Positions 33,079 through 42,542 of a stretch of DNA of 64,000 bases are shown piece by piece. The DNA lies in contig NW_020844487.1 in assembly GCF_003704095.1 (NCBI RefSeq), positions 372,001-436,000 on the forward strand, given 5' to 3'. The translations under genes and the position numbers were made by a program. The stretch's first letter is position 1. Every line of letters starts with the position of its first letter. A model generated the notes under the pieces. That model did no database searches. It saw only the letters and a program-made list of their open reading frames with translations, and was not told the origin of the DNA. This DNA comes from Pocillopora damicornis. Lineage: Eukaryota.

Positions 33079-33164
33079 GCCTCGTTAGCGCAGAAGGCAG
33101 CGCGTCAGTCTCATAATACGATTTAGAAATCTGAAGGTCGTGAGTTCGATCCTCACACGGGGCA
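33079..33164 (+). tRNA. tRNA-Met(CAT) elongator with 13-nt intron (ATACGATTTAGAA)
   Basis: GCCTCGTTAGCGCAG..CTCATA[intron]ATCTGAAGGTCGTGAGTTCGATCCTCACACGGGGCA, with T-runs downstream. Confidence 0.93.
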
Positions 33165-33539
33165 GAGTTTTGTTTTTAACAAACTTCTGCAAAGTCGCAC
33201 CATGGTACGATCGTCGGAGTATTAAAAGTCATTCTAGCATTTTAAATGGAACCTCTGACTGAAGAGACCTAATATCTAAATAAAACTTAGTTGTGGTCTC
33301 CAAAGGGCTCGTTTGGCAGCAGACTGTAACAAGAAAACTGCCCGATTGATCCTTATCACGGTTATCACTCTTAGCAAGTGTTTCGAAACAGCTTGTGGTC
33401 TGCAGGACCAGGAAAAAGTTATTATTAATTTAGGGTTACTGATAAATTGAAAAAAACATCAAAAAAGGAAAAGTTCATTATCCTGATCCTACCTTACCTT
33501 AGAGAGGCAAATAATACATTATAATTTAGTGTTAACAAC

Positions 33540-33895
33540 AGGGTTGAAAACGTAAATTAGCCACCGTAAAGAGTAAAAAGCTGACGTTTCGAGCGTTAGC
33601 CCTTCGTCAGAGCGATTGGAGGAATTGTAGGTTGTGTGTGGGTTTATATGCAGAAAGTGGAGCTGCGTCTTTGGTGGGAATATAGTGACGAGAAAACAGG
33701 AATAAATTAGTTGAATGAAAAGCGCTCATTGATTCCGTGGGGATTAAGCGTGCCGATTTGGAAGATAAATTTTTGTTCTAGTGTTTTACGGCCGCAAACT
33801 GCCATATGCTGTTTAGAATGATTAGGAAGATTAAAGTGTCTAGCGACTGGTTTGGATGCGTCCTTGTCATTTCATTCTACGTCGCGAAGGTGTTG
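33540..33895 (-). mobile_element. Penelope-like retroelement 3-prime remnant (end of GIY-YIG endonuclease + pLTR)
   Basis: Translates HLRDVE*NDKDASKPVARHFNLPNHSKQHMAVCG..RKTLEQKFIFQIGTLNPHGINERFSFN* and is followed by a hammerhead motif. Confidence 0.88.
33580..33613 (-). ncRNA. Minimal type I hammerhead ribozyme
   Basis: GCU-CUGACGA-A-GGGC-UAAC-GCUC-GAAAC-GUC-AGC: conserved core, stem II, palindromic ACGU stem III, GUC cleavage triplet and GCU/AGC stem I. Confidence 0.8.
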
Positions 33896-34026
33896 CTGCA
33901 ATGCCCTGCACATGTAAATTCGAGGTTTCCTTTAGATAAGGTCGCAGAAAACTGATGTCGTATGTCAGAGGGCTAAACTTCAACAAAAAATAAGTCAGAT
34001 TCACATGTGATAAAAGGATGCGTAAA

Positions 34027-34099
34027 TGGTCCGTGTGAGGCTTGAACTCACGACCTCGGCGTTATCAGCACCGCGCTCTGCCCACTGAGCTAACGGACC
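34027..34099 (-). tRNA. tRNA-Ile with GAT anticodon
   Basis: GGTCCGTTAGCTCAGTGGGCAGAGCGCGGTGCT-GAT-AACGCCGAGGTCGTGAGTTCAAGCCTCACACGGACCA; all four stems pair. Confidence 0.92.
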
Positions 34100-34636
34100 A
34101 CACCTGCTGTGATAAGAAAAACCGTCACAGAGAAAAATGTTAATCCTGATGTAAAGTTTTCTCGACGCATCATAGCCTCAATATAGATTTTTCAAGACGG
34201 AAATGATGTAGAGAATCCGCGGGTATCCCTCAACATGACCGCAGCATTATTTACAAGCATGCAAAGCAAATATTTTATTGACCTGTGGTAGATAAAACCG
34301 TATTTCTTTATAAGATATAGCCAGGCAGAGGTTATTAATTTGCTATAAATTTTCTCCTAATATAAGCATGAAATAATGTCAAACCAGTTAGATGAGGACC
34401 AGAGTTATGAGGCGGCCTTGTATTTCTCGTATAGTGGTCTTGCCTCAGTTTACACCGCTAAGAATTTGCCTGTTGATCGTACTTTATGATCCGTGGTCAA
34501 GGTCCGACCACAGCAACTTATACTCTGTAACTGAGTTCTCAAAAAAGTTCTTGTAGAGAGTTGGGGTAGCTGGAATATGACTAATCTTGAATCAGGCTTT
34601 TGAGCAGACGTCACAAAGAAGTAACACATATGAGTC

Positions 34637-34709
34637 GCCTGGTTAGCTCAGTCGGTAGAGCATCAGACTTTTAATCTGAGGGTCATGGGTTCAAGTCCCA
34701 TATCGGGCG
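34637..34709 (+). tRNA. tRNA-Lys(TTT)
   Basis: Full 73-nt cloverleaf with a downstream T-run. Confidence 0.95.
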
Positions 34710-35429
34710 GAACGTCAACATTCTTTTTTCTTGCTCAATCCTCGTTGTTGGCTCAGGGCATGATAGCGGCTGGGTTCCGTAGAGCGAAGACGACCTAAGG
34801 TAGAACAGACGACGTTGTGGTTAAGAAGTACCGTCGTCCCGAGGAAAATTCATAAACAAACTTACAAGACAAAACAGCACGGAAGAAAGTCTCTCGATGC
34901 GATGCGTTTTGATTGGCTCTCTCTTTGGTTATCATCTTTTGTAGGACAGACGCATAGATAACGTCGCCATTAAAACTTTTCTGCTTCATTATTTTATTTT
35001 AGCTGTAAAAACCTTTTTTCTGTGTTTACATACTCTCATCTTAACACGAGGAGGGGTTGGGAGAGTTCGAGAGAGTTAAGCAACCCGAATAAAGAGATTG
35101 ACAGATGCTGTGGACAGCTTTTGAAACCGGCCTCGGCAAAAATTGACTATAAACAGATAGCACAGATGCTATTCGTTCTTATGCAGTTTCAAGAGCCGAG
35201 CTTACTTTTCACTTCCGGGCGGAAATAACCCCATTTTGTTGGGTCACTGGTTAAACATATTAATATGATTTAGAAAGAAAAGTTTATGGTGAAAGATATT
35301 ATGTCAAAAATACTTTAATAAAGACTAAATTTAATAGCCAGACAAGTAAAGACGTTGTTTTAAGAGTTTTTTGTACCAAAGCCACGCTGCCTCCCGTAAA
35401 ATCGCTTAGATAGGGTACTTAAAAATGAA

Positions 35430-35514
35430 TGCCCCGTGTGAGGATCGAACTCACGACCTTCAGATATCTAATTAGACTATGAGACTGACGCGCTGCCTAC
35501 TGCGCTAACGAGAC
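35430..35514 (-). tRNA. tRNA-Met(CAT) elongator with 12-nt intron (GTCTAATTAGAT)
   Basis: Full body; C2>T gives a wobble pair in the acceptor stem. Confidence 0.9.
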
Positions 35515-40340: not shown

Positions 40341-40426
40341 TTCATTTTTAAGTACCTTATCTAAGCAATTTTACGGGAGGCAGCGTGGCTGAAAAAAAAT
40401 AGAAAAATAGAAAAAAAATCTTGTTT

Positions 40427-40466
40427 GATTATGAGACTGACGCGCTGCCAACTGCACTAACGAGGC
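40427..40466 (-). pseudogene. tRNA-Met 5-prime half only
   Basis: GCCTCGTTAGTGCAGTTGGCAGCGCGTCAGTCTCATAATC, then unrelated sequence. Confidence 0.85.
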
Positions 40467-40562
40467 AATCTTACCAACATCTTTTGATTGAAAAATGTTG
40501 TTTCTCTCTCGAAAACTACGGTCATATTGGCAACGATATTCGTTAATAGAATGGGACAGCAA

Positions 40563-41365
40563 AAATTTACTTTTTAACTTACTGCCTGTCGCGCCTCCTG
40601 GTGCATAGGACAGCGACGAATTCTCTACATTCCTCTCTATCCTGGGCCTGCGCTTGGATTGTCCCTGCGTCTGGTGTATGGCCTTAATCTCCTCCCTTAC
40701 CGTCCGCCGCCAAGTTTGTTTTAGGTTAGCCTCTCTCGCACTTTCCCTCTGCTGTTCAATGGACGGCTGTGATGCAATGCTGTCGGGTTCTCTCCGAAGG
40801 ATACGCCCGACCCATCTCCATCGTCGTTTATGGAAGTTGGTCTTCATATCTTCAAGTTGGCATCACTCTAGTAGCTTTGGATTGGAATTGGTTCTTAAGC
40901 CAAAATATAAGGGAGATCCTTCGGAGACATGTCGTGTACAACATTTTAAGATCGGCTTCCGACATTCGCCAGCACTCTTAGCCGTATATAACATGATTGA
41001 TAGGACACACCTCATTAAATTCGCAGCTTTGTTTTGGGGTGCTACTGTGCTGACATCCAGGCGTCTTTTATCTGATTAAGGTCCCTCTTACCTTTTTCAG
41101 TCGGTTCTGGATATATGTTGCCGTTTGCTCCACCGTCGCTTTCCTATCACACCTCCAAGGTAGGTGAAGGATTCCGTATGGTTGATATCTTGATCATCAA
41201 TCTTGTTAGATGATGGATTGGACACATTAGGAGTCTGGCTTTCAGATTTCTTCCGGCATATCTTGACAGGCACCAAAGAAATGAAAAAGTATCAATGAGG
41301 TTTTTCATAGGGTTTTTGATTAATTGACTGAATCTCTTGCTTCCACAAAGCCTCATATCTACTCT
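40563..41365 (-). mobile_element. Degenerate RTE-like LINE fragment inside the tDNA array
   Basis: KRRWRWVGRILRREPDSI..KQTWRRTVREEIK is typical of RTE ORF C-termini; AAGT-like tail; several frameshifts. Confidence 0.75.
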
Positions 41366-41419
41366 TAGAGCATCAGACTTTTAATCTGAGGTTTATGGGT
41401 TCATGTCCCATATCGGGCG
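41366..41419 (+). pseudogene. 5-prime-truncated tRNA-Lys(TTT) abutting the LINE
   Basis: TAGAGCATCAGACTTTTAATCTGAGG..ATCGGGCG, with extra substitutions. Confidence 0.85.
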
Positions 41420-41786
41420 ATAACACCGATAATGATATATTTCATTTTATCTGGGGAATTGTTTTCTATCTTTTACTAAAAAATAGCGTACTCTGTCTAA
41501 TAGAACTTTTTAATGTGCTTCGATAATCTCTGGCATTATTGCGCCTTTCTGCCCATAGCAGTTTTACGTTTTTTCATGGTTTAACTCTTAATCCAGAGCC
41601 CACCATAACGTGCAATCTCAATATACTTTCTAGTTCATCGCGTGCTCTGAAACGGCAGAAGTGGTGTGAGCGAGTTGGATGTTTACGCCATGCTCCTTCA
41701 ACCTCTGTAGCAAAGATCTCACAGCCACGCCCGATTTAAACTTTTGCGTTGAGTCGTGTTGTGGAGGAAAAAAAAGGGTTGTAAAC

Positions 41787-41859
41787 CGCCCGATATGGGA
41801 CTTGAACCCATGACCCTCAGATTAAAAGTCTGATGCTCTACCGACTGAGCTAACCGGGC
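41787..41859 (-). tRNA. tRNA-Lys(TTT)
   Basis: Full cloverleaf. Confidence 0.96.
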
Positions 41860-42457
41860 TGGTCTTGACTTCTTAACTTGCCTATTGCGATAGATTTTCC
41901 TTGGAACGACTGTACCCAGTCTGAATATGGATTTTGAAAAATGCCCATGAAAAACTTTTGGTGGTGAGCACAGTACTTTTAGTACTAAAACTGTTGTTGT
42001 ATGGAATCTTTCCACTCCCTTCTCGTTGCACAACCATGCAGCGATGTGAGAGCTGCGAAATTAGTCAATTTTGTCAGATTTCTGAATTAAGGATCGACTC
42101 ATTTATCATGTTTGTCGAACACGACTATGAAAAGTGCAAAGTAAGAACAGTTGCAGTCAAAGGCAGTAAATTCCAATGCTTAAAACCTATCAATCTGGCA
42201 GTAGTGATTTTCAGGTTTACTTCGTTAGCTATGTTCACGTCCCTAATGCGAACTATTGTAAATGGGTGTATGAAGAAGAGAGCCTATTTCACCATAGGTA
42301 CATTCGTGATAAGTTGAAATAATAAATAAATAGATAAGTAAATAGGATATGATGGGGACACTATAACCGCTAGTCAATCATCGAAGGTAGTATCATGCAG
42401 TTAAAGCTGTGGTGAATGCCAAATTTTGAAGCCACATACCATCCAATTCATTCAACC

Positions 42458-42542
42458 GCCTCGTTAGCGCAGTAGGCAGCGCGTCAGTCTCATAATCTAA
42501 TTAGATATCTGAAGGTCGTGAGTTCGATCCTCACACGGGGCA
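42458..42542 (+). tRNA. tRNA-Met(CAT) elongator with 12-nt palindromic intron (ATCTAATTAGAT)
   Basis: Full body with a T-run terminator. Confidence 0.94.

What the first reader, a model, noticed from the sequence alone, without database searches (positions are those of the whole stretch)
33079..42542. Every elongator tRNA-Met gene here carries an intron, with an invariant anticodon-intron pair
Seen: six full-length tRNA-Met(CAT) genes and one truncated copy have a 12-13 nt insert exactly after position 37. The inserts vary (ATCTAATTAGAT, GTCTAATTAGAT, ATCTAATTAGGT, GTCTAATTAGCT, ATACGATTTAGAA), but all keep G at -3 and A at -4, which can pair with C32/U33. Known: that is the A-I pair used by the TSEN endonuclease. 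Intron-containing elongator Met is typical of plants and some fungi, while well-studied bilaterians mostly confine introns to Tyr, Ile(TAT), Leu(CAA) and Arg(TCT). Inference: methionine elongation may depend on tRNA splicing in this lineage. The ATCTAATTAGAT variant is a perfect palindrome.
Basis: partly seen in the sequence, partly recalled or inferred. Interest (0 to 1): 0.7.

Follow-up and report, generated by a model that had tools for sequence, protein, structure and literature searches.

The report
Intron-split methionine tRNA genes in coral
Every intact gene found for this coral's chain-elongating methionine tRNA is split by a short intron, a layout described for plants, fungi and archaea rather than animals, and the intron's first bases copy the site that a guide RNA found in the same genome is predicted to read, so the tRNA is likely methylated before it is spliced.

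Summary
Observation confirmed. The window, from a likely stony coral, holds six full and one truncated elongator tRNA-Met(CAT) genes with 12-13 nt inserts at 37/38. A seventh full gene elsewhere also has one, no intronless elongator gene was found, and five initiator genes are intronless. Splicing is therefore inferred to be obligatory; the RNA junction was not observed. The informative feature is the intron start. It copies exon bases 38-40 (ATC in 44 of 45 distinct animal-type introns from metagenomes; 0 of 9 coral Tyr introns). The genome also holds a SNORD97-like guide in a NACA intron that pairs 10-12 bp across C34 into the intron. Intron-assisted D97 pairing before splicing is already proposed in print for plants and archaea (PMC10576143), and this scan noted it earlier in an octopus. 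Non-coral animal-type contigs carry the intron too (taxa unresolved). Verdict: a real new animal member of a known kind, not found in print for animals in 10 searches.

The parts
33079..33164 (+). Elongator tRNA-Met(CAT) gene, 13-nt intron at 33116-33128 starting ATAC (10 bp predicted guide duplex in the precursor)
35430..35514 (-). Elongator tRNA-Met gene, 12-nt intron at 35466-35477 starting GTCT (12 bp predicted duplex, with a G-U at +1)
36847..36931 (-). Elongator tRNA-Met gene, 12-nt intron at 36883-36894
38645..38729 (+). Elongator tRNA-Met gene, 12-nt intron at 38682-38693
40048..40132 (+). Elongator tRNA-Met gene, 12-nt intron at 40085-40096
40270..40340 (+). 5'-truncated tRNA-Met copy (pseudogene) with intron at 40293-40304 and an altered 3' acceptor strand
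40430..40466 (-).
42458..42542 (+). Elongator tRNA-Met gene, palindromic 12-nt intron at 42495-42506; exons match 72 of 73 bases of the human9/turtle/Xenopus row in the PMC6601510 supplement
   Evidence: compared by eye
34637..41859 (.). Six intronless tRNA-Lys(TTT) genes (34637+, 36024+, 37377+, 38008+, 39410-, 41787-) alternating with Met genes in duplicated, partly inverted units of about 1.35-1.4 kb
37585..37684 (.). Assembly gap inside the cluster, entered by 10 bases matching the Met T-arm on the minus strand; further copies may be collapsed here
34027..34099 (-). Intronless tRNA-Ile gene with anticodon GAT (neighbour; see Noticed in passing)

Best explanation
All seven intact elongator tRNA-Met genes found in this coral assembly carry a short intron at 37/38 that is likely cut out by TSEN, and the intron's first three to four bases copy the exon bases they displace, which is predicted to let a SNORD97-family guide RNA methylate the wobble C34 before splicing. 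Steps: (1) RNA polymerase III transcribes the genes (A and B boxes and downstream T-runs shown; transcription inferred). (2) The box C/D guide in a NACA intron (G000:C1602, about 60993-61193, minus) pairs with G30-A37 plus intron +1..+4, placing C34 opposite the fifth base before box D (complementarity shown; methylation inferred from the human system). (3) C32 pairs with intron G-3, TSEN cuts both ends and a ligase joins the exons (A-I geometry and TSEN gene shown; cleavage and ligation inferred). (4) Because the intron start equals exon 38-40/41, the same guide also fits the spliced tRNA (12 bp). The intron is most likely an old eukaryotic one kept in corals and other marine animals and lost in the usual model animals (inferred).
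For: Genome-wide, 8 of 8 exact-flank matches carry an insert. Of 43 A-box/CAT/B-box matches (17 in the reversed control), 7 are intron-bearing elongator genes, 5 are intronless initiator genes and 0 are intronless elongator genes. Even a decayed copy keeps a 10-nt insert (L019). TSEN domain PF01974 is found at 2 places. Guide: 1 of 7 antisense-plus-box-D hits (4 in control) has a 6-bp terminal stem, a near-consensus box C and an Rfam SNORD97 alignment with an identical antisense element. It lies in sense orientation 82 nt before the 3' splice site of a NAC-domain gene. Precursor duplex: 12 bp in 5 of 7 full genes, 11 in 1 and 10 in 1; random introns reach 11 or more in 150 of 2000. The G variant at +1 (3 of 8 copies) keeps pairing as G-U. 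In 45 distinct animal-type metagenome introns, +1 is A in 45, +2 T in 44 and +3 C in 45, while +4 varies (C22, A15, T8); G-3 is 44 of 45. Conservation ends at position 40, where the 11-base invariant block of vertebrate, insect and plant eMet also ends. Controls: 0 of 9 coral Tyr introns and 0 of 2 Ile-GAT introns start with their exon-2 triplet. PMC10576143 reports a duplex of at least 11 bp in which plant and archaeal eMet introns take part (passage).
Against: No spliced RNA, methylation or guide expression was observed. The guide scores 30.4 bits, under the Rfam cut-off of 45 (E 0.12), was picked by its antisense motif (partly circular), and a direct RF01291 genome search missed it (no control rang). 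Human D97 works on intronless tRNA, so action after splicing is possible. The 33079 copy breaks the copy at +3 and the C3794 copy at +4. None of 15 algal- or yeast-type introns starts with ATC, and plant introns start GCT. Guides were not examined in those organisms. The assembly has gaps in the cluster, so an intronless copy is not excluded. MFE folding does not reliably give the A-I helix.
Confidence: 0.7

Rival explanations
1. The introns are ordinary TSEN introns and the guide acts only on the spliced tRNA. The ATC start is kept for another reason (a fossil of an exon duplication, another modification enzyme, or cleavage-site preference).
For: Human SNORD97/SCARNA97 methylate tRNA from intronless genes. 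The guide pairs 12 bp with the mature form in 7 of 7 genes. Some coral-like introns copy up to 7 exon bases (ATCTGAA), as a duplication origin would give. +1 is also A in 9 of 9 Tyr introns.
Against: A neutral fossil would not keep +1..+3 in 44 of 45 introns whose length (13-24 nt) and middle differ freely. Conservation stops where the invariant guide target stops. Eukaryotic tRNA introns are described as lacking conserved terminal motifs.
Confidence: 0.2
2. The intron is a coral- or cnidarian-specific gain, as the first reader's 'this lineage' implies.
For: Coral-like introns form their own class (13-14 nt, G-5 in only 1 of 10). Animal tM(CAU) introns are not described as conserved. The taxa of the other contigs could not be fixed.
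Against: 35 distinct introns sit on two other exon classes in 41 loci, with the same ATC start (34 of 35) and G at both -5 and -3 (35 of 35). One class lies beside CCDC134-like exons whose relative matches human CCDC134 and gave no match in this coral genome (an empty answer is weak). Plant introns also end near GAGT. An earlier unchecked note reports the intron in an octopus.
Confidence: 0.07
3. The intron-bearing copies are pseudogenes or repeats, and unassembled intronless genes supply the mature tRNA.
For: The cluster is duplicated, has truncated copies and a gap. The genome holds many tRNA-like repeats (21 Thr(GGT)-like loci). No RNA evidence was obtained.
Against: Exons are near-identical to vertebrate functional eMet while flanks differ by 12-27%. 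Mutations fall mostly in the intron and keep G-3. An unlinked gene on another contig has the same design. No intronless copy was found by four patterns.
Confidence: 0.03

Closest known systems
Intron-containing elongator tRNA-Met of flowering plants (PMC11700998, passages) and fungi (PMC12168002, passages)
   Same: Same isotype, canonical position, length about 12 nt (plant means 11.5-14.4), family-wide presence; G-rich AG motif near the 3' end.
   Different: Animal host. The intron starts (A/G)TC, a copy of exon 2, instead of plant GCT. The coral class has T rather than G at -5, leaving C34 mismatched in the anticodon-intron helix.
SNORD97/SCARNA97 (D97/D133) box C/D guides for Cm34 of eMet (Rfam RF01291; PMC6601510 section 4 part 2, passages and supplement file 2; PMC10576143 passages)
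   Same: Terminal stem, antisense element identical to the Rfam consensus, box D, C34 at the fifth position, intronic location, U-rich interior. PMC10576143 already proposes intron-assisted pairing before splicing for plants and archaea.
   Different: Host gene NACA rather than EIF4G2 or LARP4; 201 nt; below the Rfam cut-off. The target here is an animal precursor with an intron, and the same antisense element fits both precursor and mature tRNA.
Haloferax volcanii sRNA for Cm34 of elongator pre-tRNA-Met (Joardar 2011; only the title seen in reference lists; paper not held)
   Same: Guide-directed wobble methylation of an intron-bearing eMet precursor.
   Different: Archaeal BHB splicing and sRNP; not compared at sequence level here.
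Standard animal tRNA introns: Tyr-GUA, Ile-UAU, Leu-CAA, Arg-UCU (PMC10275265 section 11)
   Same: Position 37/38, C32:purine-3 A-I pair, TSEN pathway; the coral's 10 Tyr genes also carry introns.
   Different: Met isotype, and a conserved 5' motif that the coral Tyr introns lack.

Membership tests
Canonical eukaryotic (TSEN) tRNA intron | Inserted between N37 and N38 of an intact tRNA gene | tested here: met
   removal gives 73-nt tRNAs; variants fall in the first ATC copy, not the second, favouring the 37/38 register
Canonical eukaryotic (TSEN) tRNA intron | A-I pair between pyrimidine 32 and the purine at intron -3 | tested here: met
   8 of 8 genomic copies have C32:G-3; definition
Canonical eukaryotic (TSEN) tRNA intron | Anticodon-intron helix (bulge-helix-loop) | tested here: inconclusive
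   Pairs at 32, 33, 35 and 36 with a C34 mismatch in 5 of 7 genes; MFE folds often prefer other structures
Canonical eukaryotic (TSEN) tRNA intron | Splicing endonuclease encoded in the genome | tested here: met
   PF01974 at 2 places, one in a 372-aa open frame; the other subunits and the ligase were not searched
Canonical eukaryotic (TSEN) tRNA intron | Spliced product seen in RNA, or cleavage in vitro | not testable with these tools
   RNA runs hold part of the region but only as mRNA-type contigs, and no reads were laid on the genes
Elongator (not initiator) tRNA-Met | G1-C72, standard T-loop, lacks initiator identity elements | tested here: met
   separates these from the intronless initiator genes; exons match vertebrate eMet rows
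SNORD97/SCARNA97 family (locus L185) | D-box antisense element placing eMet C34 at the fifth position | tested here: met
SNORD97/SCARNA97 family (locus L185) | Box C, box D, terminal stem, sense-strand intronic location | tested here: met
   6-bp stem, box C with one mismatch, box D intact, inside a NAC-domain gene intron
SNORD97/SCARNA97 family (locus L185) | Rfam RF01291 gathering score of 45 bits | tested here: not met
   30.4 bits, E 0.12; it is therefore filed as SNORD97-like, not as a member
SNORD97/SCARNA97 family (locus L185) | Expressed and required for Cm34 | not testable with these tools
   no data

The most novel reading that the evidence does not exclude
The elongator tRNA-Met intron is an ancestral animal trait kept across corals and many marine invertebrates. 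It is held by selection as the docking extension for the D97 guide. Because its start mimics exon 38-40, one guide reads both precursor and mature tRNA, which would explain how vertebrates and other model animals lost the intron without changing the guide. Met would be a fifth animal intron family, missed through model-organism bias.
Probability: 0.45. Interest if true: 0.6.

Novelty: new member of a known kind. Interest (0 to 1): 0.4.

Why it matters
Why tRNA introns persist is an open question, and intron-dependent modification is the main proposed answer. PMC12168002 notes that Met introns could hide such a modification but places them in plants and fungi. An animal with a 12-nt Met intron, natural variants that keep or weaken guide pairing (ATCT, GTCT, ATCC, ATAC) and an identifiable guide makes the order of methylation and splicing directly testable. 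It would also revise the four-family list of animal tRNA introns. A practical point: ARAGORN without its intron option miscalls one gene as Ile and misses the C3794 gene.

Tried and rejected
Palindrome as a function: rejected. It is present in 2 of 8 copies and not conserved in coral-like relatives, and it follows largely from ATCT at the start plus AG at -4/-3. A-4:U33 as invariant: rejected (7 of 8; 40 of 45). Non-canonical 40/41 register: disfavoured, because the variants fall in the first ATC copy (the second copy is fixed by my search pattern, so this test is one-sided). RNA evidence: one search listed 15 runs; only one RNA run held more than a small share (0.23), and no reads were laid, so this is no evidence either way. 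Direct RF01291 genome search: nothing, and no control rang. Leu-CAA pattern: 0 matches, uninformative. Rfam tRNA census scored only 63 of 19702 candidates, so it is no census. Taxon of the non-coral contigs: Pfam on 90 of 275 long ORFs, two homologue searches, cluster look-up (63), Atlas (69, no hit at 0.9) and Rfam on 20 loci (70) named no taxon; 148 ranked short ORFs were not searched further. Viral contigs: 6 matches, all without insert, not informative. Literature: 10 searches found no paper on cnidarian or invertebrate eMet introns; probably failed on spelling. Schmidt and Matera 2020 and Joardar 2011 were not held, the PMC12168002 supplement could not be read, its Fig. 5B values are not text, and GtRNAdb cannot be queried, so the trait may already be listed there.
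Full report
1. Observation. ARAGORN and Rfam call six full tRNA-Met(CAT) genes between 33079 and 42542. A script places a 12-13 nt insert directly after A37 in each of them and in a 5'-truncated seventh copy. An extra 5' half lies at 40430-40466 on the minus strand. The Met genes alternate with six Lys(TTT) genes in duplicated, partly inverted units (13 self-matches over 200 bp, 73-93% identical), and a 100-N gap interrupts the cluster.

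2. Organism. The closest homologue cluster of a window protein (89% identity) contains a protein named from the coral Oculina patagonica. The RNA run with the largest share of the region (0.23) is labelled coral metagenome. I read the source as a stony coral (inference).

3. Genome-wide test. An exact-flank pattern allowing 0-30 inserted bases gave 8 matches, all with an insert: 7 in the window and 1 on C3794; the control gave 0. The 5' exon with up to 2 mismatches gave 12 matches: 9 exact, plus 3 that are a probable chance hit, a fragment and a decayed gene that still holds a 10-nt insert. A degenerate intronless pattern gave 4 matches against 4 in the control, none a tRNA. A general A-box/CAT/B-box pattern gave 43 matches (control 17): 7 intron-bearing elongator genes, 5 intronless initiator genes and no intronless elongator gene. 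ARAGORN checked the 30 loci fetched; the other 13 rows were judged by eye. So 6 of the 7 intact elongator genes found sit in this window. A TSEN catalytic domain is present. Intron-bearing tRNAs cannot translate before splicing (PMC10275265, section 11), so splicing is inferred to be required. It was not observed: no reads were laid on the genes.

4. The A-I pair is ordinary. [quoted passage not shown] It holds in 8 of 8 Met, 9 of 9 Tyr and 2 of 2 Ile-GAT introns here. A-4 fails in the C3794 gene.

5. Distribution. It could not see intronless genes. Of 81 distinct hits, 70 passed an A-box and B-box filter, with G-3 in 69 of 70. By exon type, 45 distinct introns are animal-type, 15 algal- or yeast-type and 7 other (my own filter). 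The animal-type set splits into a coral-like class (10 introns, 14 loci, 9 of them with Lys(TTT) as in the window) and two other classes (13 and 22 introns). One of these lies next to CCDC134-like exons. I could not name its taxon, and some contigs may be non-animal holozoans.

6. The intron start and the guide. Exon 2 starts ATCT; coral introns start ATCT (3 copies), GTCT (3), ATCC (1) and ATAC (1). In the 45 animal-type introns, +1..+3 are A 45, T 44 and C 45, and +4 is variable. Coral Tyr introns never start ATC (0 of 9 read, of 10 genes), and 0 of 15 algal- or yeast-type introns do. A genome search for the predicted antisense element plus box D gave 7 hits (control 4). One of them, L185, aligns end to end with Rfam SNORD97 (30.4 bits, below the cut-off of 45). 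It has a 6-bp terminal stem and lies in sense orientation 82 nt before the 3' splice site of a NAC-domain gene; that spacing being typical of intronic snoRNAs is recalled. The guide pairs with 30-41 of the spliced tRNA (12 bp) and with 12, 12, 12, 12, 12, 11 and 10 bases of the seven precursors. Random introns give 11 or more in 150 of 2000 trials and 8 in 1041. The invariant block in the published eMet alignment covers positions 30-40 (PMC6601510 supplement file 2), the same boundary at which intron conservation ends.

7. Mechanism. Most likely the precursor is bound by the guide RNP across C34 and into the intron, methylated at C34, then cut by TSEN using C32:G-3 and ligated. Shown: gene anatomy, absence of intronless genes in the assembly, guide structure and complementarity, and conservation. 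Inferred: transcription, methylation, its timing, splicing, and ancestral origin. In human cells Cm34 protects eMet from angiogenin cleavage; its role in coral is unknown.

8. Against this reading. There is no RNA evidence; the guide is below threshold and was selected by its motif; the human guide works without an intron; two coral genes shorten the match; copies and relatives are not independent; and assembly gaps could hide genes.

9. Comparison with print. Met introns are described as conserved in plants and fungi (PMC12168002, passages) and occur in all 69 flowering-plant genomes examined, starting GCT with GAGT near the end (PMC11700998, passages). PMC10576143 (passages; its supplements gave no text hit) already states that plant and archaeal eMet introns take part in a D97 duplex of at least 11 bp and that splicing likely follows modification. 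The mechanism is therefore known in kind. PMC2888827, PMC12530127, PMC4090602, PMC4536317, PMC7994747 and PMC6601515 were seen as passages and said nothing on animal Met introns. Ten searches found no account in cnidarians or other invertebrates, but GtRNAdb, Fig. 5B and the supplement of PMC12168002, and one key review could not be seen and may hold it.

10. Verdict. A real feature and a new animal member of a known kind, already glimpsed by this scan in an octopus. Interest 0.4; 0.6 if the broad invertebrate distribution and methylation before splicing are confirmed.

Noticed in passing
window 34027-34099 (-); G000 C787, C872, C1895, C4221 (L221-L230): All 10 tRNA-Ile genes caught by a pattern open at position 34 have anticodon GAT; none has AAT or TAT. 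Thr-AGT, Ser-AGA and Val-AAC genes exist. Eukaryotes normally use AAT read as inosine (recalled). This suggests an Ile-specific G34 swap; genes with another body could have been missed. One paper search and one notes search found nothing.
   Followed up: partly
G000:C787:257562-257640 and C4221:299900-299981 (L193, L230): Two Ile(GAT) genes carry 25- and 28-nt introns with G at -3 and an internal hairpin, while 8 others are intronless. No intron-bearing Ile(TAT), Arg(TCT) or Leu(CAA) gene was caught.
   Followed up: partly
L185 1495-1695 (-), G000:C1602: SNORD97-like box C/D RNA of 201 nt with a U-rich interior, in an intron of the NACA gene; a host gene not named in the papers read.
   Followed up: yes
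L020, L239, L243, L245-L267: 21 scattered, variable tRNA-Thr(GGT)-like sequences, probably a tRNA-derived repeat family.
   Followed up: no
L096 and L132: Contigs of an unknown eukaryote with introns in Ser(CGA) (24 nt) and Thr(AGT) (28 nt) as well as in elongator Met.
   Followed up: no
L068-L070, L094, L099, L106, L107, L119, L128: The Lys(TTT)-Met linkage of the window recurs in 9 of 14 coral-like loci.
   Followed up: partly
L058, L067, L101, L122: High-GC algal-type Met genes with an intron and an apparently enlarged T-arm region; possibly a second, non-canonical intron.
   Followed up: no
window 53171-53228 (+): A Lys-like tRNA fragment between assembly gaps, 10 kb from the cluster; more collapsed copies are possible.
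   Followed up: no
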